Source of the DNA: a virus
Lineage: Duplodnaviria; Heunggongvirae; Uroviricota; Caudoviricetes
IMG/VR virus record: IMGVR_UViG_3300045988_143263
DNA length: 47,925 nucleotides
Direction: 5' to 3' (one strand)
Shown here: one piece after another, positions 1 to 47,925 of the stretch
Layout: each line of letters opens with the position of its first letter
Numbering within the stretch: the stretch's first letter is position 1
The notes under the pieces: model-generated
What the model was told of the DNA's origin: nothing
The model's database searches: none
What the model saw: only the letters and a program-made list of their open reading frames with translations
Made by a program: the position numbers and the translations under genes

Positions 1-60
1 TAGGAAATTTTTTCCCACCTGTAAAGCACTTTTTATATAAATCTATAATTATATAAGCAC
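1..60 (-). promoter_or_regulatory. 3' half of repeated promoter-leader cassette (partial copy at window start; continues from window end if circular)
   Basis: Near-identical to 38578..38636 and 32196..32253; contains TTTACA -35-like box (reverse strand) and TATATAATTATAGATTTATATAA motif. Confidence 0.5.
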
Positions 61-3988: not shown

Positions 3989-4014
3989 TTCGCAAAAACC
4001 TCGGTTTACAGGAA
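3989..4014. other. gix-like inversion crossover site (left)
   Basis: Reverse complement reads TTCCTGTAAACCGAGGTTTTTGCGAA, closely matching the Mu gix consensus TTCCTGTAAACCGAGGTTTTGGATAA. Confidence 0.7.
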
Positions 4015-4038
4015 ACGGTAAACAGGGCTGGTAACGCC

Positions 4039-4875
4039 GTGCAAAAAAATGGCGATACCTTGTCCGGTGGGCTTACTTTTGAAAATGACTCAATCCTTGC
4101 CTGGATTCGAAATACTGACTGGGCGAAGATTGGATTTAAAAATGATGCCGATGGTGACACTGATTCATACATGTGGTTTGAAACAGGCGACAACGGCAAT
4201 GAATATTTCAAATGGAGAAGCCGCCAGAGCACCACAACAAAAGACCTGATGACGCTGAAATGGGATGCACTAAATATTCTGGTAAATGCCGTCATTAATG
4301 GCAGTCTTGGAGTTGGTACGACGAATGCGTTAGGTGGTAGCTCTATTGTTCTTGGTGATAATGACACCGGATTTAAACAGAATGGAGACGGTATTCTGGA
4401 TGTTTATGCTAATAGTCAGCGTGTATTCCGCTTTCAGAATGGAGTGGCTATTGCTTTTAAAAATATTCAGGCCGGGGATGGTAAAAAATTCACGCTATCC
4501 AGCTCCAACACCTCCACAAAGAATGCAACGTTTAATTTATGGGGTGCTTCAACCCGTCCAGTAGTTGCAGAGTTAGGCGATGAGGCAGGATGGCATTTCT
4601 ATAGCCAGCGAAATACAGATAACTCGGTAATATTTTCTGTTAACGGTCAGATACAGCCCAGCAACTGGGGGAATTTTGATTCACGCTATGTAAAAGATGT
4701 TCGCCTGGGTACGCGTGTTGTTCAATTGATGGCGCGTGGTGGTCGTTATGAAAAAGCCGGACACGCAATTACCGGATTAAGAATCATTGGTGAAGTAGAT
4801 GGCGATGATGAAGCCATCTTCAGACCAATACAAAAATACATCAATGGCACATGGTATAACGTAGCACAGGTGTAA
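4039..4875 (+). CDS. alternative tail-fibre C-terminal variable segment (silent orientation; would fuse to the constant region after inversion)
   Basis: In-frame upstream peptide …LGLQETVN… matches the junction in the active fibre gene; C-terminus RPIQKYINGTWYNVAQV parallels the active fibre's [17 protein letters not shown]. Confidence 0.6.
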   Translation: MQKNGDTLSGGLTFENDSILAWIRNTDWAKIGFKNDADGDTDSYMWFETGDNGNEYFKWRSRQSTTTKDLMTLKWDALNILVNAVINGSLGVGTTNALGGSSIVLGDNDTGFKQNGDGILDVYANSQRVFRFQNGVAIAFKNIQAGDGKKFTLSSSNTSTKNATFNLWGASTRPVVAELGDEAGWHFYSQRNTDNSVIFSVNGQIQPSNWGNFDSRYVKDVRLGTRVVQLMARGGRYEKAGHAITGLRIIGEVDGDDEAIFRPIQKYINGTWYNVAQV

Positions 4876-4878
4876 ATT

Positions 4879-5406
4879 ATGCAGCATTTAAAAAATATTA
4901 AGTCAGGAAATCCAAAAACAAAAGAACAATATCAGCTAACAAAAAATTTTGATGTTATCTGGTTATGGTCCGAAGACGGTAAAAACTGGTATGAGGAAGT
5001 AAATAACTTTCAGGACGACACCATAAAGATTGTATACGACGAGAATAATATTATTGTCGCCATCACCAAAGATGCCTCCACGCTTAACCCTGAAGGCTAT
5101 AGCGTCGTTGAGATTCCAGATATAACAGCCAATCGTCGTGCCGATGATTCAGGGAAGTGGATGTTTAAGGACGGAACTGTGGTTAAGCGGATTTATACAG
5201 CAGACGAACAGCAACAACAGGCCGAATCACAAAAGGCCGTGTTGCTTTCTGAAGCTGAAAGCGTTATTCAGCCACTGGAACGTGCTGTCAGGCTGAATAT
5301 GGCGACGGATGAGGAACGCACACGACTGGAGTCATGGGAACGCTACAGCGTTCTGGTCAGCCGTGTGGATACAGCAAAGCCCGAATGGCCACAAAAGCCT
5401 GAGTAA
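4879..5406 (+). CDS. tail-fibre assembly protein (alternative copy, U'-like)
   Basis: 175 aa, paralogous to 5435..5974 ([18 protein letters not shown] vs [17 protein letters not shown]). Confidence 0.7.
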
Positions 5407-31877: not shown

Positions 31878-32143
31878 TCATCATCTCCTGCCGCACATAC
31901 AACCTCACAAAAAACATCAGCGGAATGTTTCTCCTTGAACGAATGACGCTCAAAACCGCACTCAATATCAGGCGCAAAAACATCCACCACATACGGTCTT
32001 TCAGAATGTTTGTTTTCCCAACGATAAACCGTAGTGACGTTGAAATGTTTTAACGCTTCACGGAACTCAACGCTGCCCGTCAGGTTTTTTGAGGTCAGGT
32101 ATTGCAGGAGGTTTTTTACTACTTCACGGTCTTGTACTTTCAT
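31874..32143 (-). CDS. hypothetical protein (first gene downstream of a repeated promoter-leader cassette)
   Basis: 89-aa ORF; ATG at 32141..32143 directly follows the conserved leader …ccggagataacccg. Confidence 0.4.
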   Translation of the reverse strand: MKVQDREVVKNLLQYLTSKNLTGSVEFREALKHFNVTTVYRWENKHSERPYVVDVFAPDIECGFERHSFKEKHSADVFCEVVCAAGDDE

Positions 32144-32255
32144 CGGGTTATCTCCGGTTTAACCAGGGCGGGTATCGCTCGGTTTCGGGTATAACCATAG
32201 GAAATTTTTTCCCATCCGTAAAGCACTTTTTATATAAATCTATAATTATATAATT
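32144..32255 (-). promoter_or_regulatory. repeated promoter-leader cassette, copy A
   Basis: Near-identical to 38527..38645 and to window end plus start; minus strand reads TATATAATTATAGATTTATATAAAAAGTGC-TTTACG-17 nt-TATGGT-leader with GGAGA RBS. Confidence 0.5.
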
Positions 32256-33151: not shown

Positions 33152-33227
33152 TGGTGGCCCCTACCGGATTTGAACCGATGACCGTGCGATTATGAGTCGC
33201 CTGCTCTAACCACTGAGCTAAGGGGCC
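33152..33227 (-). tRNA. tRNA with CAU anticodon (tRNA-Ile2/Met-like)
   Basis: 76 nt; cloverleaf with acceptor GGCCCCU/AGGGGCC, GCUC/GAGC D-stem, anticodon loop CUCAUAA, GGUUCAAAUCC T-arm and 3' CCA; 5' half resembles E. coli ileX from memory. Confidence 0.8.
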
Positions 33228-37458: not shown

Positions 37459-38526
37459 TCAGGCTTTCAATAGCGATTCTTTTAAATATCGGGCATCAGC
37501 CAGGGCGTTTGGAGTAATCTTGCGAACCCATGCATTACGGGTTGGACTCCACTTAAAGGCGCGTGATTTAAGCAGCGAACGAATGTTTGCCTCTGGTTTG
37601 CCAGGGAAATAAAACAGGATGCGGTTATCCTCTGGATCTATCTCCATAGAAAAGCCGTCGTATTCTTCGCGCTGTGCTCCTGTTACAGACTTGACCGATT
37701 CAAGCTCCTTAATACGGCTCTGTAGTCGTTTGATTTCGGCGTTATTGTTGCTCAGTGCGTATGAAGGGAATCCGATGCGCCCACAGAAATCTCCGGCCAG
37801 TAACTCTTTGGCTTCGCTTTCTGTAAACCTGAGATCGATTAATGCAGAAAGCTGCTGTATTTGGTCTTTTTTGTATTTGCGAATGGCCTTATTTGCGGCC
37901 TTCATTTTGACGTGTGACTTCATGCAGCCTTGCAGCTTACGAAGCAACTTAAATAGCGCATCAGGATCATCAGACGAAATTCCATTACGCCCAACACCTG
38001 CGGCTTTGCTCTCGTAGTGTGATGCTTTACTTTCGCATTCAACAAACGCTTTTCTGAATAACGCATCAGCTTTAGACAAACGGCGGCGATGGCCTTTCGC
38101 GCTATAATGGTCAACTAAAATCGGCTGGCCTAACGGGATCACATCCAACAGGTCATGCGCTCGCTTATGCGCTACCGCACCTTCTTTTCTGGCTTTTTCT
38201 GCACGAGCAATATATCGGGCAAGACGCGCGTTCTGGCGTTCCTGATAGGTGTTTACGTAATCATCTCCGCGCTGCTGCTGTTCAAGCCATGCTTTGCGCA
38301 GATCTTCTGTTACGTCCACCAGCTCCGCAGGGATACAACCTGTTTGGGCTTCATAAGAGTAACCATCCTCATAGATGCGCCCATCGTCTTCAACAAAGAA
38401 AAAGGTTTCGTGCTCATCGCTTTTGACCATACGACCATTAACATGGCGTAATAGGTAGCCAGTATCAGTGCTCAACAGGCTGTTAGGGTTGTTGATCCAG
38501 TCAGAAATAATTACTTGTTTATTCAT
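37459..38526 (-). CDS. DUF3560-like phage protein (start trimmed to MNKQVIISD)
   Basis: ~355 aa; ATG at 38524..38526 directly follows the conserved leader of the repeated cassette, which the ORF-track N-terminal extension would read through. Confidence 0.45.
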   Translation of the reverse strand: MNKQVIISDWINNPNSLLSTDTGYLLRHVNGRMVKSDEHETFFFVEDDGRIYEDGYSYEAQTGCIPAELVDVTEDLRKAWLEQQQRGDDYVNTYQERQNARLARYIARAEKARKEGAVAHKRAHDLLDVIPLGQPILVDHYSAKGHRRRLSKADALFRKAFVECESKASHYESKAAGVGRNGISSDDPDALFKLLRKLQGCMKSHVKMKAANKAIRKYKKDQIQQLSALIDLRFTESEAKELLAGDFCGRIGFPSYALSNNNAEIKRLQSRIKELESVKSVTGAQREEYDGFSMEIDPEDNRILFYFPGKPEANIRSLLKSRAFKWSPTRNAWVRKITPNALADARYLKESLLKA

Positions 38527-38647
38527 CAGATTTCTCCGGTTTAACCAGGGCGGGTATCGCTCGGTTTCGGGTATAACCTTAGGAAATTTTTTCCCACCTG
38601 TAAAGCACTTTTTATATAAATCTATAATTATATATTTATAGATTTTC
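38527..38647 (-). promoter_or_regulatory. repeated promoter-leader cassette, copy B (immediately downstream of Q-like gene)
   Basis: -35 TTTACA (rc of 38599..38604), 17-nt spacer, -10 TAAGGT (rc of 38576..38581), AT-rich upstream motif, ~45-nt leader with GGAGA RBS. Confidence 0.5.
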
Positions 38648-41065: not shown

Positions 41066-41183
41066 ACCACGATATGTGGTATTAAAACCACATATCGTGA
41101 GTTTTTCAATGGGCGAAACAAAAAATAACCTTCTATTTGTGGTCCACCTCTCGTCTTACCATGTGAAAACCACTAAATGTGGT
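41066..41183. promoter_or_regulatory. immunity operator/promoter region with ACCAC-N5-GTGGT sites
   Basis: ACCACGATATGTGGT (41066..41080), ACCACATATCGTGAG (41087..41101), ACCACTAAATGTGGT (41169..41183); TATAAAT -10-like box at 41188..41194. Confidence 0.5.
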
Positions 41184-42475: not shown

Positions 42476-42494
42476 ACACATGGAGTCTCGACAA

Positions 42495-43148
42495 ATGACT
42501 ATCTCTGTAGGTATTTTCAACGGAAAAGGCGGCGTAACCAAATCAACAATTGCCCGTGCTTTAGCAGTTGCTTATGCAAAGGCTGGCTGGAATGTATGCC
42601 TGATCGATATGGATGTGCTTAACGGAACGGTAACACGTTGGGTACAACGCAGAATGGCCAACAATATCGAACCAGCAATCGCGGCGCAGCCGTGCGGCAC
42701 ACCATCACAAGTCCAGAAAATCATCGAATCAGAAGTATACGACCTGGTTATCGTCGATGGCGGTGCCTACGCATCTGAATCAGTACCGAAGCTCTCTGAA
42801 TTTCTGGATATGGTTATTTTGCCAACCAGATTCTCTACCGATGACCTGGAAACCACCGTTAACACAGCTCACGGCATCGTTAAAAAGGGTGTACCAATCA
42901 AGAAAATTTGCATGGTGTTTTCCGGCGCGGCTGAAAACGAAGCTGACTATATTGAAGCCCAAGAGTACCTGGCTAATACGCCATACTTTGTTGTCGATAA
43001 GTACATTCCCCACAAGCCAGCTCTGAGCAAAGCTCAGGATAAGGGCTTAAGCCTCATTGAGTGCTCATACGTTGCGCCACGCAAAAAGGCAGACGACGTT
43101 ATTCAGGGGATTATCAACCAGCTTGAGGCTCTGACTACTGCCGCGTAA
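42495..43148 (+). CDS. parA: ParA-family partition ATPase
   Basis: Deviant Walker A box NGKGGVTKST ten residues from the chosen start; start set at the second ATG (GGAG RBS). Confidence 0.8.
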   Translation: MTISVGIFNGKGGVTKSTIARALAVAYAKAGWNVCLIDMDVLNGTVTRWVQRRMANNIEPAIAAQPCGTPSQVQKIIESEVYDLVIVDGGAYASESVPKLSEFLDMVILPTRFSTDDLETTVNTAHGIVKKGVPIKKICMVFSGAAENEADYIEAQEYLANTPYFVVDKYIPHKPALSKAQDKGLSLIECSYVAPRKKADDVIQGIINQLEALTTAA

Positions 43149-43180
43149 TATATAATTATAGTTTTATAGATTTATATAAG
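43147..43180. repeat. AT-rich iteron block between parA and the ParG-like gene
   Basis: ATATATAATTATAGTTTTATAGATTTATATAA. Confidence 0.45.
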
Positions 43181-43191
43181 AGGGGATACAC

Positions 43192-43440
43192 ATGGCCGCA
43201 CCATCAAAACCACCAAAGAAGAACAGCAAAGGCGTACCGCCATCGATCGAACAACCGCAGGTTTTCGACCCGACTGAAACGCCAACCAGAACCAAATCAG
43301 GTGGGGCACAAATGGCGTTTAACGTCGACCCTGAATTTAAACGCGAGTACAAAACGTTCGCCAGCTCAATGGATATGTCATTGAAAGAAGTGCTGACAAA
43401 GTCTTTTGAGTTACTCAAGGCTCAATACAACCAGAAGTAA
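43192..43440 (+). CDS. ParG-like ribbon-helix-helix centromere-binding protein
   Basis: 82 aa; disordered basic N-terminus and C-terminal RHH-like segment MAFNVDPEFKREYKTFASSMDMSLKEVL; directly downstream of parA. Confidence 0.5.
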   Translation: MAAPSKPPKKNSKGVPPSIEQPQVFDPTETPTRTKSGGAQMAFNVDPEFKREYKTFASSMDMSLKEVLTKSFELLKAQYNQK

Positions 43441-43662: not shown

Positions 43663-43686
43663 AAAAAAAGGCCCCCGAAGGGGCCT
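43663..43686 (-). terminator. rho-independent terminator (minus strand; hairpin shared with plus-strand gene end)
   Basis: ggcccc-cgaa-ggggcc 7-bp stem; A7 run on plus strand gives a U7 tail on the minus strand. Confidence 0.5.
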
Positions 43687-43691
43687 AATCG

Positions 43692-43814
43692 CTACTTGCT
43701 GCTAATGTTTATCGTCACATTCAGAGCGTTATCAGTAATCTTCCAACCCTCCCCATGTGGCGTAAACAAAGCTCCAGTAACAACGATAAAAATACACATG
43801 TAGTATTTTTTCAT
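43692..43814 (-). CDS. small hydrophobic peptide (signal-peptide or membrane-like)
   Basis: 41 aa MKKYYMCIFIVVTGALFTPHGEGWKITDNALNVTINISSK; followed by a terminator; ~170-nt structured upstream leader. Confidence 0.3.
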   Translation of the reverse strand: MKKYYMCIFIVVTGALFTPHGEGWKITDNALNVTINISSK

Positions 43815-44231
43815 TGTGTGGCCCTTACAGGCCGTTTCACGGCATCCCCACCGACGAAAATGACGCGAGAGCAAGCACGCTGTTTGTGCCTGCGTGGTAC
43901 GGCAAGTGGATAATCCTTTCCTGAAAGTCGGTGCCCGGTTGCGAATCGGCGAAAAGGCCCCGCGTAATGTTACACCGCAGCCCCTTCATAATGAAGGGAT
44001 AAAAATGTATTGTTTTTCATTAAGTTAAATACACACCACAAAAATCACTCGCTTTTGTGCTCTAACAAACCAAATTTATTTGGACAATTTTATTCAGTTA
44101 GGTAAGAATATGATTGCTGTTTGTGCTTGCGTGGTTGTATTTATACAACAACGTAATGCTGAAAGGACCGCGAATCCGATCAGCACGAAAGAACCGTCCT
44201 CAATAGGGCGGTTTTTTTGTTTCTTCACTCA

Positions 44232-44959: not shown

Positions 44960-45056
44960 CGCCATTGGTGGACACTTTCCGAGCCGTAGCAAAATCTACG
45001 GCCGGGATTGGAACCCCGTAGACACAATGGCGCATACCGCGTTAGCGGTTTTTTTA
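44960..45056 (+). ncRNA. candidate c4-like regulatory small RNA
   Basis: Three predicted hairpins (44984..45001, 45002..45018, 45036..45048) ending in T7; two blocks are complementary to the downstream leader at 45128..45148. Confidence 0.35.
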
Positions 45057-45221
45057 TGCGTAAAGCACTGCTACACCCAAATTATGGTGGGGCGTGCGGG
45101 GGAGTCGTAAGACTCGCCGGTTCGTCATTGTGTCCGGTAGTTCCAACCCTGCACGTCTCACCACCCAATGATTGGAACCTGACGGTGGTGAGTATCCTTA
45201 ACCTTTAAGGGAATCATCACA

Positions 45222-45413
45222 ATGACAAACCTACCCCATGACTATTACGTCAACCTCGTAAAGATCCTTCTCAAGAAAGCCTCATACGCCGATAAATTAC
45301 GCCTGGCTGAAATCATCGAGCGCGAAGCTATGCGCATCGCCAGCAACGATAACGCTGTTTCTGACGCAAAAATCTCCCTCGTAACCAAAGTAGTTATGGG
45401 AGGTGCAAAATGA
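45222..45413 (+). CDS. small protein translationally coupled to antirepressor gene (Icd-like position)
   Basis: 63 aa; AAGGGA RBS; stop overlaps the antirepressor start (ATGA). Confidence 0.35.
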   Translation: MTNLPHDYYVNLVKILLKKASYADKLRLAEIIEREAMRIASNDNAVSDAKISLVTKVVMGGAK

Positions 45414-46552
45414 AAACGCTTCCGACCGTTAACACCCTACAGCCTATCCTGCATAACCAGATCCCCGTTATCACTAGTGAACTTCTGGCGCAGTTATACG
45501 GAACAAAAATCAAAAACATTTCTGATAATTTTCTGAACAACACGACGCGATTCGTAGCCGGAAAGCATTACTTTAAAATTGAAAAAAACGAATTACGCGA
45601 GTTCAAGAACAGACCCGAAACAATCGGGTTAGTTGGTAAAAATGCCCGCTCCCTAATTCTCTGGACCGAACGCGGGGCTGCACGTCACGCTAAAATGCTC
45701 GAAACCGATCAGGCGTGGGATGTATTCGAACGGCTGGAAGACTGCTATTTCAACCAGAACGCGCAAACGGCCGCGACCGTAACCGTCTCGCCAAACAATG
45801 CTCGTGAGGTTGTCGATACGCTCAACGCCAAACCGATGTTTTACATTAAGGTGTGCAATAACGAGCCACTCACAACCTCAGCCGATGTTGCCCAGGCATT
45901 CAGCACCACAAACAATTCCATCGTTATGGCCATCGATGCGTTACGCATTCCTCGCACAGCTGCGGCGCGTCACTTCTTTAAAGAACAACGACCGCTGGAA
46001 GGAAGCGACCGCGAAATAACAATCTATCGCATGACAAAAGACGGATTTACCTTGCTCATGGAAAGTATCGACGGTCCAGGCGTGAAGGATATCAAGCTGG
46101 CCTACATTGAAGCCTTTAACGCTATCAGCAGCGTGTTAAAAACACAGTACGAGCGCGATCTGGCTAAACGACTGTACCAGGAAAAAACGATTATCCGCGC
46201 GGCAACAGAGCATAATCGGCTATTAACGGAACCGAACTACAGGAAGGAACTAATCAAGGAGTTTGACAAGGCAACAGGGAAAACCAAAGCGGCGCTAAAT
46301 CTGCCAGCAATGACTCAGGAAAATGTGATATCAGCCTTACTTCTTGATCTGCTCAGAAACGCCAGAGCACTGATCAGCTTTGACGAAAACCTGAATCCTC
46401 AGCTCAAGCTACTACCACCGACAGGCAAAGTAGTCGACCAGGCAGATCACAACAGCATACTCAGCGTACTGGATGCAAACCTGCCAGCCAGGACACTACA
46501 GGAGCTGATAAAAACATGTGCTGATAAGCTCGCACAGAAAAGCAGACCATAA
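45410..46552 (+). CDS. phage antirepressor (Ant-like, ORF6N/Rha-type domains)
   Basis: 380 aa; N-terminal segment ITSELLAQLYGTKIKNISDNF…FKIEKNEL and a second Rha-like region LTTSADVAQAFSTTNNSIVMAIDAL. Confidence 0.5.
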   Translation: MKTLPTVNTLQPILHNQIPVITSELLAQLYGTKIKNISDNFLNNTTRFVAGKHYFKIEKNELREFKNRPETIGLVGKNARSLILWTERGAARHAKMLETDQAWDVFERLEDCYFNQNAQTAATVTVSPNNAREVVDTLNAKPMFYIKVCNNEPLTTSADVAQAFSTTNNSIVMAIDALRIPRTAAARHFFKEQRPLEGSDREITIYRMTKDGFTLLMESIDGPGVKDIKLAYIEAFNAISSVLKTQYERDLAKRLYQEKTIIRAATEHNRLLTEPNYRKELIKEFDKATGKTKAALNLPAMTQENVISALLLDLLRNARALISFDENLNPQLKLLPPTGKVVDQADHNSILSVLDANLPARTLQELIKTCADKLAQKSRP

Positions 46553-47087
46553 CAACAAAGGGGCTACGGCCCCTTTAAGACACACCCCCCCTCCCCCCAT
46601 ACAGGGTGCCCTTTACCGGAGTTCCGGCCCCTTCTCAAAAGCATCAAAAAAAGCTCGAGATAGAGTACCGGAACTCATGCCACCAGATAGCTCCACATCG
46701 TTTCCAATGCTTCGCCGCCGTGTGCGCCCTGTGGCCCACAATCATGCCATTGGTCGTCTGATATACCTTCTTCTGCTCATAGAGCACAGGCGAGTTGTCG
46801 CACTCCTGCCTTTCTCAGACTCGACTTAGTTTAGATCGCTGTTCCTGGCTTGCGTCAGCACACTTTCCCCTTGTACGCATACCCGCGCGCCACTTCGCCC
46901 AAAAACACCGAACCCAACGAAGTGGCAAAGACAACGACGCGAGCGTGAGTCTGAAATGGGCACCAGTAAAAAAGGGGTTGCAGGCGCAAAAAGATTTGAT
47001 TATCTTTAGACGCAAGAAAGCCGCCCCAATCAAGAGGTGTCTTTTTAAATCCAGCCTACCAAGCAAGATTTAAATTTCAGACTGAAA

Positions 47088-47109
47088 ACCGCCCGGCAAG
47101 GCGGTTTTT
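47088..47109. terminator. bidirectional rho-independent terminator
   Basis: accgcc-cggcaa-ggcggt hairpin followed by T5 on plus strand; ~50 nt past the stop of the minus-strand HTH gene. Confidence 0.45.
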
Positions 47110-47157
47110 GTCTTTCTGGCGCTTACATTACACCACCATAAAACGATCCGTAAAGGA

Positions 47158-47430
47158 TCATTTGATCCCTTGTTCCAATTCTGCCGACACTTTAACCTTT
47201 TCCCATACAAGGGTTTGCAGCCTTAACAGAATCGCATCTTTATCAAGGTGTGAAAGATCCTTCACCATATCGTCAAACGACAGAACGCGAATGGCCATCT
47301 CAATGACCCTCGGCGGCTCCCCCTTCTCATATCGCTTATATGTAGCCAACGATATCCCAAATTCTTCGGCGGCTCGCTCCTGCGTCCAGTTCATCCCACG
47401 ACGCCATAATTTCAATTCATAACCCGTCAT
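47158..47430 (-). CDS. HTH XRE-family regulator (start trimmed to MTGYELK)
   Basis: ~90 aa; HTH GMNWTQERAAEEFGISLATYKRYEKG; strong GAGGAGG RBS upstream of ATG 47430; ORF-track start at 47463 is a TTG. Confidence 0.5.
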   Translation of the reverse strand: MTGYELKLWRRGMNWTQERAAEEFGISLATYKRYEKGEPPRVIEMAIRVLSFDDMVKDLSHLDKDAILLRLQTLVWEKVKVSAELEQGIK

Positions 47431-47458
47431 AGCACCCTCCTCGCACAATATTAACACT

Positions 47459-47485
47459 CGCAAAGTGTCAAAATGACACTTTGCG
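47459..47485. promoter_or_regulatory. 27-bp perfect palindrome operator overlapping a TTGACA -35 box
   Basis: cgcaaagtgtca-aaa-tgacactttgcg; the minus strand reads TTGACA within the left arm; ~30 nt upstream of the HTH gene. Confidence 0.5.
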
Positions 47486-47493
47486 CATTGTGT

Positions 47494-47874
47494 TTACTTA
47501 ACGAGGAATAAAAATGGTTTATTGTTCGGCGGTGTAATCGGGGCTGGCTCGCTTTTGCTCATGCGATCAGTGTACCAGGCCAACTCCTTGTCAAAGTAAG
47601 CCTGATTAAAATAGGCCATGAATGTAGTTTCAAATCCATAACGACCGCTAATACGCAGCATCTGATTGCCGTTCTCTGTTTCCAGATATACCTGGGCACG
47701 TTCCTGATTCTCCTTCAGCCAGGTTAAAGCCTCATCGCATGAGGACACACGATACTCATCATCGTAGCAGTCATCGATGCGGCTTGAGGAAGAACGGCAA
47801 ATCACGCCAACAGAACCAGCCAGGATAGTTTGAATTTTAAGGAAAGCGTTTTTGCGGATTTTAATCATGCTCAT
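47494..47874 (-). CDS. hypothetical protein (first gene downstream of a repeated promoter-leader cassette)
   Basis: 126-aa ORF; ATG at 47872..47874 directly follows the conserved leader …ccggagataacccg. Confidence 0.4.
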   Translation of the reverse strand: MSMIKIRKNAFLKIQTILAGSVGVICRSSSSRIDDCYDDEYRVSSCDEALTWLKENQERAQVYLETENGNQMLRISGRYGFETTFMAYFNQAYFDKELAWYTDRMSKSEPAPITPPNNKPFLFLVK

Positions 47875-47925
47875 CGGGTTATCTCCGGTTTAACCAGGGC
47901 GGGTATCGCTCGGTTTCGGGTATAA
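47875..47925 (-). promoter_or_regulatory. 5' half of repeated promoter-leader cassette (partial copy at window end)
   Basis: Identical to 32144..32194 and near-identical to 38527..38578; continues into window positions 1..60 if the replicon is circular. Confidence 0.5.

What the first reader, a model, noticed from the sequence alone, without database searches (positions are those of the whole stretch)
47158..47874. Two-gene cassette (126-aa unknown plus HTH regulator) with a 27-bp perfect palindrome overlapping its promoter
Cassette-driven unknown protein (47494..47874) is followed by an HTH XRE-type gene whose -35 TTGACA lies inside a 27-bp perfect palindrome (47459..47485), indicating tight autoregulation. 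The arrangement (unknown effector upstream, autoregulated HTH downstream, next to the HigBA pair across the window junction) resembles toxin-antitoxin or small defence or exclusion modules. The 126-aa protein has no recognisable family.
Basis: partly seen in the sequence, partly recalled or inferred. Interest (0 to 1): 0.5.

Follow-up and report, generated by a model that had tools for sequence, protein, structure and literature searches.

The report
Self-regulated HTH gene beside orphan gene
On a 48-kb E. coli phage-plasmid, a small DNA-binding regulator with a conserved palindrome over its own promoter sits next to an uncharacterised 126-aa gene, but relatives show the two are separable neighbours and not a toxin-antitoxin or defence pair.

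Summary
The sequence features are real. Both genes lie on the minus strand: a 126-aa ORF (47874..47494) and a 90-aa XRE-type HTH (47430..47158). Between them is a perfect 12-3-12 palindrome (47459-47485), unique in the window and conserved in relatives.

The TTGACA inside it is only 12 bp from the conserved -10. The conserved promoter element is instead an extended -10, TGnTAAnAT in five loci and weaker in two. The palindrome would cover about -44 to -18.

Autoregulation of the HTH gene is the best reading, but it is inferred and not shown.

The toxin-antitoxin or defence reading is not supported:
- Three relatives carry the palindrome core, promoter and HTH without the 126-aa gene.
- One has the HTH cut by IS110 with the 126-aa gene intact.
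- Viable Yersinia phages have a 323-bp insertion between the HTH ribosome-binding site and its ATG.
- At least 8 plasmids have an opposite-strand gene inserted between the two.
- The 126-aa gene has its own promoter cassette, repeated three times, without the palindrome.

HTH relatives occur on 1,855 plasmids; the 126-aa family on 63.

The 126-aa protein (phrog_8090) gives a confident model with no fold match; its function is unknown. A highly conserved ~650-nt non-coding block next door may be more interesting than the pair.

The parts
47494..47874 (-). 126-aa protein-coding gene, PHROG 8090, function unknown. It is an optional cargo gene of this phage-plasmid family.
   Evidence: ORF. Orthologues at 65-71% identity are full length. 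AlphaFold2 pLDDT 82, pTM 0.73. 37 clusters among 1.84 billion representatives. Absent from relatives L067, L073 and L074.
47158..47430 (-). 90-aa XRE-family helix-turn-helix regulator.
   Evidence: Pfam HTH_3 at 29.8 bits, cut-off 23. phrog_6962 at 1.5e-45. Orthologues at 69-74% identity have an invariant recognition helix. Family found on 1,855 PLSDB plasmids.
47459..47485 (.). Perfect 12-3-12 palindrome, the putative operator of the HTH protein. It also forms a 12-bp hairpin in any read-through RNA.
   Evidence: Searches show it is unique and beyond chance. It is conserved with compensatory outer-arm changes in L004-L007, L063 and L067, and the core is kept in L073. RNA fold -34.1 kcal/mol, z -4.9.
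47448..47456 (-). Putative extended -10 promoter element (TGTTAATAT) of the HTH gene. With it as reference the palindrome spans about -44 to -18.
   Evidence: TGnTAAnAT is invariant in five aligned loci. L067 has TGATAAATT and L073 has TGTTAGCGT. In L067 the upstream gene is on the opposite strand, so a promoter must lie here. Not mapped experimentally.
47436..47442 (-). Shine-Dalgarno sequence GAGGAGG of the HTH gene.
   Evidence: Read directly from the sequence.
47083..47110 (.). Bidirectional intrinsic terminator 47 nt downstream of the HTH stop. It makes the HTH gene the last gene of its transcript.
   Evidence: Terminator scan, L001 6184-6211, which equals window 47083-47110. Invariant in relatives.
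47875..47925 (-). Conserved 5'UTR and ribosome-binding site of the repeated promoter cassette that drives the 126-aa gene. The cassette continues at window 1-56.
   Evidence: Three copies aligned.
1..56 (-). Upstream half of the cassette: the rest of the -10 (which spans the junction), a GGAAA-AAA-TTTCC dyad in the spacer, -35 TTTACA at 25-20, and the AT-rich 21-bp motif at 36-56.
   Evidence: Promoter scan on L001, alignment, and motif search with 10 sites against 0 expected.

Best explanation
These are two adjacent but separable transcription units in the plasmid-maintenance arm of a ~48-kb Escherichia phage-plasmid with a P2-like tail, an IncFII-type RepA and a ParA.

Unit 1 is the 126-aa gene. 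It is optional cargo, expressed from one of three copies of a ~100-bp promoter/5'UTR cassette. The cassette's AT-rich 21-bp motif also flanks parA, so I infer that the gene belongs to a plasmid-wide regulon, possibly controlled by the small RHH-like partition protein, as with omega or KorB.

Unit 2 is the 90-aa XRE-type HTH gene, a backbone gene with its own extended -10 promoter. I infer that a dimer of the protein binds the palindrome (core AAAGTGTCA-N3-TGACACTTT, about -44 to -18). This would shut off its own promoter and could also block read-through from the upstream gene. The transcript ends at a terminator 47 nt past the stop. No second operator exists on the element, so the only cis target is the gene's own promoter.

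The HTH protein is not an antidote to the 126-aa protein.

Shown here: the gene structures, the palindrome, the conservation patterns, and the separability of the two genes. Inferred: HTH binding, promoter activity, and the identity of the cassette regulator.
For: Separability
- L067 and L074 have hicB, then a 103-aa gene on the opposite strand, then the palindrome and the HTH gene.
- L073 has higA, a terminator, the AT-rich motif, GTGTCAatgTGACAC and the HTH gene.
- None of these three carries the 126-aa gene.
- L007 has an intact 125-aa gene while the HTH is truncated at residue 32 by IS110.
- vB_YpM_41 has a 323-bp insertion with inverted-repeat ends between the HTH ribosome-binding site and ATG; the DNA match suggests vB_YpM_44 has the same.
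- At least 8 of 40 sampled plasmids have a 570-bp insert with an opposite-strand 141-aa gene between the -10 and the HTH gene.

Operator and promoter
- The palindrome is unique and beyond chance.
- The core is invariant or changes only by transitions, and the recognition helix is invariant.
- An extended -10 lies immediately downstream in all seven variants examined.
- The pOXA-48 homologue has a similar palindrome at its operon promoter.

Separate promoter for the 126-aa gene: three cassette copies aligned, with a -35/-10 called by the scan.

Regulon idea: the AT-rich motif has 10 sites against 0 expected, including two clusters upstream of parA and one before an 82-aa RHH-like gene.

Distribution: HTH family on 1,855 plasmids, 126-aa family on 63.
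Against: - No binding, transcription start or expression data exist; the promoter is a sequence inference, and the consensus scan did not call it.
- In the window the predicted leader is only about 13 nt.
- The arms are perfect for 12-15 bp, longer than an HTH dimer usually contacts. Outer-arm changes are compensatory but do not track changes in the HTH protein. A hairpin role, or palindrome homogenisation by template switching, could explain the symmetry instead.
- In p48-type plasmids the palindrome stays with the 126-aa gene, 570 bp away from the HTH gene.
- A repressor whose only cis target is itself has no obvious purpose, so a second activity is probably missing from this picture: a protein partner, or targets on other replicons.
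- In all 62 close PLSDB relatives the two genes do co-occur.
Confidence: 0.58

Rival explanations
1. Reverse-order type II toxin-antitoxin or abortive-infection pair. The 126-aa protein is the toxic effector. The HTH protein is its antitoxin, kept in supply by its own autoregulated promoter, as described for HigA.
For: - The genes are adjacent and co-directional in all 62 close plasmids.
- The effector comes first, as in the neighbouring HigBA pair.
- An independent promoter for the second gene is known in some reverse-order systems (from my own knowledge of higBA).
- The HTH shows weak similarity to MqsA and HipB HTH domains.
- An autoregulated HTH with no other cis target suggests a protein partner.
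Against: - The HTH occurs without the 126-aa gene in three arrangements.
- The 126-aa gene is intact where the HTH is destroyed or uncoupled.
- A gene is inserted between them in about a fifth of sampled plasmids.
- The palindrome does not control the 126-aa promoter.
- There is no toxin family or fold match.
- The MqsA and HipB scores are far below their cut-offs.
- Distant family members pair with, or are fused to, a different 72-76-aa protein.
Confidence: 0.1
2. The palindrome works mainly as a nucleic-acid hairpin and not as a protein operator. In the RNA it would be a 3' stabiliser, processing site or partial terminator between the two cistrons, or a device for translational coupling. In the DNA it could form a cruciform.
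For: - The stem is perfect for 12-15 bp with a 1-3-nt loop, and the outer arms differ between relatives but stay complementary.
- RNA folding gives -34.1 kcal/mol, z -4.9.
- In p48-type plasmids the palindrome stays at the 3' end of the 126-aa gene.
- 6 of 9 arm asymmetries give G.U in the sense strand.
Against: - There is no U-tract after the stem on the sense strand; the scan called it terminator-like only on the opposite strand.
- It is present in L067 with no co-directional upstream gene.
- In L073 only the 6-7-bp core survives, which is too short for a stable hairpin but typical of an HTH half-site pair.
- 6 G.U against 3 A.C is not significant.
- Perfect arms and the loop inversion in L025 (AAA to TTT) can arise by template switching without selection.
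- The longer stem that would sequester the Shine-Dalgarno sequence is not conserved.
Confidence: 0.2
3. The HTH protein is the regulatory head of a variable cargo or defence slot, and the 126-aa gene is incidental. HTH homologues lead defence-type operons elsewhere. In this family it would control the neighbouring variable genes, or the conserved non-coding block downstream.
For: - Homologues sit inside operons with a PtuA-like ATPase pair (PDC-M01; L010) and with an Mrr-type restriction nuclease (L008, pOXA-48).
- Beyond the conserved block, relatives carry different genes of 214, 264 and 218 aa.
Against: - A conserved terminator directly follows the HTH gene.
- There is no second operator in the window.
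- The variable genes lie more than 600 nt away, behind the non-coding block.
- The window itself has no cargo gene there.
Confidence: 0.1

Closest known systems
Small autoregulated XRE-family (Pfam HTH_3) repressors of plasmids and phages, such as the HTH gene in the pOXA-48 (IncL) operon of hypothetical gene, HTH and Mrr-type nuclease (WP_004187394.1), or controller proteins of restriction-modification systems
   Same: About 80-90 aa with an N-terminal XRE HTH. A palindromic site overlaps the promoter of its own transcription unit. 44-55% identical relatives occur on 1,855 plasmids.
   Different: Here the gene is monocistronic and terminator-bounded, with no downstream gene to control. The palindrome is unusually long and perfect (27-31 bp). 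The half-site differs from that of pOXA-48 (GTGTCA against TGTTCA).
Reverse-order type II toxin-antitoxin systems (HigBA, MqsRA)
   Same: Two small co-directional genes, with the HTH protein encoded second and possibly having its own promoter. A true HigBA pair lies immediately upstream.
   Different: The first protein matches no toxin family or fold. The operator does not control the first gene. The genes are 63 bp apart and are separated or uncoupled in natural variants. Co-occurrence is not obligate.
Global plasmid regulons run by a partition or centromere-binding protein (omega of pSM19035, KorB of RK2), as a model for the promoter cassette of the 126-aa gene
   Same: One short motif recurs at the parA promoter and at several unrelated promoters around the element.
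   Different: The comparison rests on my own knowledge of those systems and on motif distribution only. The binding protein is not identified, and the cassette also duplicates the whole promoter and 5'UTR, not just an operator.

Membership tests
Type II toxin-antitoxin system | Two small adjacent co-directional genes | tested here: met
   126-aa and 90-aa ORFs, both on the minus strand, 63 bp apart.
Type II toxin-antitoxin system | One partner belongs to a toxin family or fold | tested here: not met
Type II toxin-antitoxin system | Operon promoter for both genes autoregulated by the antitoxin | tested here: not met
   The 126-aa gene has its own repeated promoter cassette without the palindrome. 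The palindrome lies downstream of its stop codon.
Type II toxin-antitoxin system | Partners co-occur; the toxin gene is not kept intact without the antitoxin | tested here: not met
   HTH without the 126-aa gene in L067, L073 and L074. Intact 125-aa gene with an IS110-truncated HTH in L007. HTH uncoupled in vB_YpM_41.
Type II toxin-antitoxin system | Toxicity of one protein, neutralised by direct binding of the other | not testable with these tools
   Needs expression and interaction assays.
XRE / HTH_3 transcriptional regulators | HTH_3 domain above Pfam's gathering score | tested here: met
   PF01381 at 29.8 bits, cut-off 23, residues 6-40.
XRE / HTH_3 transcriptional regulators | Dyad-symmetric site at the regulator's own promoter | tested here: met
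   Palindrome at 47459-47485 directly upstream of a conserved extended -10. The core is conserved in 8 variant loci. Binding itself was not tested.
MqsA-family antitoxin | NCBIfam TIGR03830 above its cut-off, including the N-terminal CxxCG zinc domain | tested here: not met
   25.4 bits against a cut-off of 61.8. Only the C-terminal HTH part of the model (positions 65-117) matches.
RstR-family phage repressor | NCBIfam NF041951 above its cut-off | tested here: not met
   34.1 bits against a cut-off of 80.
Known anti-phage defence systems (PADLOC-DB 2.0) | Either protein matches a defence-system model | tested here: not met
   The 126-aa protein has no match. The HTH has only a chance-level match, mad1 at E 0.026.
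Intrinsic (Rho-independent) terminator, as the role of the palindrome | GC-rich stem followed by a U-tract on the transcribed strand | tested here: not met
   The scan flags it only on the + strand, which is antisense to both genes. On the sense strand the stem is followed by AGUGUUAAUAUUG.
PHROG 8090 (function unknown) | Full-length match to the family profile | tested here: met
   E 6.3e-89, residues 1-126 of 126. All 23 family members tested match it.

The most novel reading that the evidence does not exclude
The 126-aa protein is the founding member of a small family (PHROG 8090; 37 clusters among 1.84 billion representatives). It has a beta-alpha-beta-beta-alpha-beta-beta-beta-alpha fold with no solved or viral structural relative.

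On this reading it is a plasmid or phage establishment or anti-defence effector, switched on by a plasmid-wide, partition-protein-controlled promoter cassette. In other lineages it would work together with a 72-76-aa partner, which is fused to it in some proteins.

In the enterobacterial lineage the adjacent HTH, and/or the highly conserved ~650-nt non-coding block that overlaps the 3' end of the HTH gene, would form part of a new regulatory circuit.
Probability: 0.15. Interest if true: 0.6.

Novelty: new member of a known kind. Interest (0 to 1): 0.3.

Why it matters
As a toxin-antitoxin or defence candidate this can be set aside, which saves wet-lab effort on a false lead.

What remains is modest:
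- The HTH gene is a clean, compact example of a probably autoregulated plasmid HTH with a 27-bp operator candidate.
- The 126-aa gene is a rare orphan protein family with a confident but unmatched fold, wired to a repeated promoter cassette on a phage-plasmid.

This element is carried by common E. coli strains, including ATCC 25922. The surroundings could tell more about how phage-plasmids coordinate plasmid and phage functions than the gene pair itself. The two features worth following are the motif shared between the partition locus and several promoters, and the highly conserved non-coding block.

Tried and rejected
- Lipoprotein or signal peptide for the 126-aa protein. Rejected: Cys26 is Ser in most orthologues, and the N-terminus is a conserved strand-helix-strand in the model.
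- Profile search against PDB sequences, and Pfam and PHROG scans of 23 family members. Only a sub-threshold LPD25 match appeared, in the C-terminal extension of one marginal member, P0093.
- Telling RNA hairpin from DNA operator by the direction of G.U asymmetries. The result, 6 against 3, is inconclusive.
- A long hairpin that pairs the HTH Shine-Dalgarno sequence with the end of the 126-aa ORF, for translational coupling. It is predicted in the window but not conserved.
- Paralogy between the 126-aa protein and the 124-126-aa protein upstream of parA. None was found.
- A homologue in the window of the 72-76-aa partner. None was found.
- Assigning the element to the pSLy3 phage-plasmid group. 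Wrong: that group belongs to the SSU5 supergroup.
- Literature searches on the phage names, protein accessions and PHROG ids. No papers were found.
- The genome-contig scan gave only one distant locus. The full family alignment was too diverse for that tool.
- Rfam found nothing in 46400-47925.

Full report
**What the window is.** The 1-kb region matches 62 non-mobilizable plasmids of about 46-52 kb. These come mostly from Escherichia, with some from Salmonella and Klebsiella. It also matches three Yersinia phages, vB_YpM_39, 41 and 44. The identical plasmid CP055628.1 carries P2-like tail and head genes, a CI-like repressor, RepA, ParA and a DNA invertase. The window is therefore a phage-plasmid. 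The finding lies in its plasmid-type arm, in the order RepA, two small genes, HigBA, the 126-aa gene, the HTH gene, a non-coding block, and an antirepressor operon headed by a C4 antisense RNA.

**Checking the observation.** Both genes are on the minus strand:
- The 126-aa ORF runs from 47874 to 47494.
- The 90-aa HTH ORF starts at ATG 47430, behind a GAGGAGG ribosome-binding site, and ends at 47158.
- The HTH passes Pfam HTH_3.

The palindrome CGCAAAGTGTCA-AAA-TGACACTTTGCG at 47459-47485 is perfect. It is the only match in the window to its 21-bp core even with three mismatches allowed, against 0.02 expected. Perfect arms of 12 bp or more were absent from 29 of 30 simulated sequences.

The 126-aa gene is driven by a promoter/5'UTR cassette of about 100 bp that occurs three times in the window. 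A HigB/HigA pair lies across the junction. The window lacks three bases (CCA) at the junction relative to CP055628.1, inside the cassette -10.

One detail of the observation does not hold. TTGACA inside the palindrome is only 12 bp from the conserved -10 hexamer, and the consensus scan calls no promoter there. What is conserved is an extended -10 directly after the palindrome: TGnTAAnAT in five aligned loci, TGATAAATT in L067 and TGTTAGCGT in L073. With that element as reference, the palindrome spans about -44 to -18.

**The 126-aa protein.** It matches nothing in Pfam, NCBIfam or PADLOC, and it is PHROG 8090, which has no known function.
- A word-indexed search of 5.8 billion proteins found 17 clusters.
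- An exhaustive profile search of 1.84 billion representatives found 37.
- Orthologues at 65-71% identity are full length. Cys26 is not conserved, so it is not a lipoprotein.
- AlphaFold2 gives a confident model with pLDDT 82 and pTM 0.73, of topology beta-alpha-beta-beta-alpha-beta-beta-beta-alpha followed by a disordered tail.

Distant members at 25-45% identity occur in other phage-plasmids and in marine plasmids. There the gene also sits behind a locally repeated promoter cassette. It is followed by a 72-76-aa protein with a W..DNAS.RAYRG motif, and that protein is fused to the family domain in P0062 and P0067. The window has no such partner. The function remains unknown.

**The HTH protein and the palindrome.** Orthologues at 69-74% identity keep an identical recognition helix, ISLATYKRYEKG. 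Across L004-L007, L063 and L067 the core AAAGTrTCA-N3-TGAyACTTT is kept. The outer arms differ (CGC, GTGG, GCTC, GCGC) but stay complementary, giving palindromes of 27-31 bp. These outer changes do not track changes in the HTH protein: the window and L006 share helix 2 but differ in the outer arms.

The symmetry may therefore reflect a hairpin constraint. It may equally reflect mutational homogenisation of palindromes by template switching; one variant, L025, has the loop inverted from AAA to TTT. Arm asymmetries give G.U in the sense strand six times and A.C three times, which decides nothing.

Three observations favour an operator:
- In L073 only the core GTGTCA-ATG-TGACAC survives, still in front of the HTH gene.
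- In L067 the element precedes the HTH gene although the upstream gene is on the other strand.
- The pOXA-48 homologue has an ATGTTCA-AATA-TGAACAT palindrome at its operon promoter.

On the sense strand the stem has no U-tract after it. A conserved bidirectional terminator follows the HTH gene at 47083-47110.

**Are the two genes a functional pair?** The comparative evidence says no.
1. The HTH, with its palindrome core and promoter, occurs without the 126-aa gene in three arrangements. L067 and L074 have hicAB, an opposite-strand 103-aa gene, and then the HTH gene. L073 has the HTH gene directly after higA.
2. In L007 an IS110 element truncates the HTH at residue 32, inside the recognition helix, while the 125-aa gene upstream is intact.
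3. In the viable Yersinia phage vB_YpM_41, a 323-bp insertion with roughly 27-bp inverted-repeat ends separates the HTH ribosome-binding site from its ATG. The DNA match suggests vB_YpM_44 has the same insertion.
4. In at least 8 of 40 sampled plasmids, a 570-bp insert carrying an opposite-strand 141-aa gene lies between the -10 and the HTH gene.
5. The 126-aa gene has its own promoter, which lacks the palindrome.
6. HTH relatives occur on 1,855 PLSDB plasmids, mostly conjugative Klebsiella plasmids, while the 126-aa family occurs on 63. Elsewhere HTH homologues sit in operons with an Mrr-type nuclease (pOXA-48, L008) or a PtuA-like ATPase pair (L010).

**Most likely mechanism.** The HTH gene is a backbone gene that represses its own extended -10 promoter through the palindrome. 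Bound protein, or the RNA hairpin, may also limit read-through from the cassette-driven gene. This is inferred and not shown.

The 126-aa gene is optional cargo inserted between higA and the HTH gene, together with a copy of the promoter cassette. The cassette's AT-rich 21-bp motif occurs at 10 sites against 0 expected. These sites include two clusters just upstream of parA and one in front of an 82-aa RHH-like gene. This suggests a plasmid-wide regulon run by the partition protein, as with omega of pSM19035 or KorB of RK2; that analogy comes from my own knowledge.

One weak point remains. A repressor whose only cis target is itself has no obvious purpose, so a further activity is likely and unknown.

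**Novelty and verdict.** The HTH with its operator is a new member of a well-known kind. The 126-aa family is uncharacterised, but nothing here shows a new kind of system. Interest is low to moderate at 0.3. The most novel reading not excluded is that the 126-aa family is a new-fold establishment or anti-defence effector of the cassette regulon (probability about 0.15).

**Seen in passing.** A non-coding block of about 650 nt (46575-47222) overlaps the 3' end of the HTH gene. It is 83-90% identical to relatives whose backbone genes are only 70-77% identical at the DNA level. It shows no codon periodicity and has no Rfam match. It contains one hairpin with compensatory stem changes around a conserved 20-nt loop. 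It deserves a study of its own.

Noticed in passing
window 46575-47222 (hairpin at 46890-46925; C-run at 46585-46598): This is a highly conserved non-coding block. It starts in the last ~65 nt of the HTH gene and runs ~580 nt past its stop. It is 83-90% identical to relatives whose RepA, HigBA and Par regions are only 70-77% identical at the DNA level. There is no codon periodicity (35/29/26), no Rfam match, and it is present in all 62 related plasmids and nowhere else in PLSDB. Variable positions cluster in one hairpin stem, with compensatory changes around a conserved loop YCCAAAAACACYGAACCCAA. It could be a non-coding RNA or an origin-type element; which is unknown.
   Followed up: partly
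window 47871-47925 plus 1-56; 32139-32253; 38522-38634: Three copies of a promoter/5'UTR cassette of about 100 bp. Each has an AT-rich motif, -35 TTTACA, a GGAAA-AAA-TTTCC dyad in the spacer, -10 TATGGT or TAAGGT, and a ~50-nt conserved leader and ribosome-binding site. They drive the 126-aa gene, an 89-aa gene and a DUF3560 gene. Distant phage-plasmids (L011, L013) have their own repeated cassettes with a similar leader end, AACCGGAG.AT.ACCG-ATG.
   Followed up: partly
window 36-56, 32233, 33374, 37406, 38615, 42367, 42440, 43148-43176: A 21-bp AT-rich motif, TATAAATCTATAATTATATAA, occurs at 10 sites against 0 expected. Two clusters lie directly upstream of parA (42480-43148) and one lies before an 82-aa RHH-like gene (43192-43440). 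This suggests a partition-protein-controlled global regulon of the omega or KorB type.
   Followed up: partly
window 44983-45168, 45222-46552, 43664-43962, 33155-33227: Rfam hits above the gathering score: isrK and C4 antisense RNA, directly upstream of a 63-aa ORF and a 380-aa ORF6N/pRha antirepressor-like gene (a P1/P7 immI-like c4-icd-ant arrangement), plus ryfA and a tRNA.
   Followed up: no
window 41068-41099: The only other exceptional perfect palindrome in the window (13-bp arms, 6-nt loop). It lies in the divergent region between the CI-like repressor gene and the early operon, and is probably the main immunity operator.
   Followed up: no
L072 (Yersinia phage vB_YpM_41) about 840-1165: A 323-bp MITE-like insertion with roughly 27-bp terminal inverted repeats (GGGGTTCCGTGGGAATTTCTGCGATAA...) and an apparent GCTATG target duplication. 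It lies between the Shine-Dalgarno sequence and the ATG of the HTH gene. The DNA match suggests vB_YpM_44 has the same insertion.
   Followed up: partly
L004 5159-5803; L005 1231-2025; L006 1480-2136; L001 5460-5648: Beyond the conserved non-coding block lies a variable slot with unrelated genes of 214, 264, 218 or 62 aa in different relatives. None matches Pfam or PADLOC. The window has no gene there.
   Followed up: partly
L011 4564-4782; L013 3537-3767; P0062, P0067: A 72-76-aa protein with a W..DNAS.RAYRG...YKSW.G.S motif follows distant members of the 126-aa family and is fused to the family domain in two proteins. It has no Pfam match and no homologue in the window.
   Followed up: partly
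L018-L068 (IMG/VR contigs), for example L062 and L065: The core AAAGTrTCA-N3-TGAyACTTT occurs in 51 stretches of viral contigs. About 40 of them have no relative of this HTH nearby, and some contigs carry four copies (TAAAGTGTCATAATGACACTTTA). Some look like terminators. Others may be operators of an unrelated regulator with the same half-site.
   Followed up: no
L010 4001-6716; L008 and L069 (pOXA-48) 4001-5311: HTH homologues at 44-55% identity are embedded in operons with a PtuA-like ATPase plus partner (PADLOC PDC-M01) or with an Mrr-type restriction nuclease, next to ParM and resolvase genes on conjugative plasmids.
   Followed up: partly
window 47925 / 1 junction: The window's ends are not an exact circular junction. 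The identical plasmid CP055628.1 has three more bases (CCA) between them, and the other two cassette copies show the same bases. The -10 of the 126-aa gene promoter is therefore split and incomplete in the window.
   Followed up: yes
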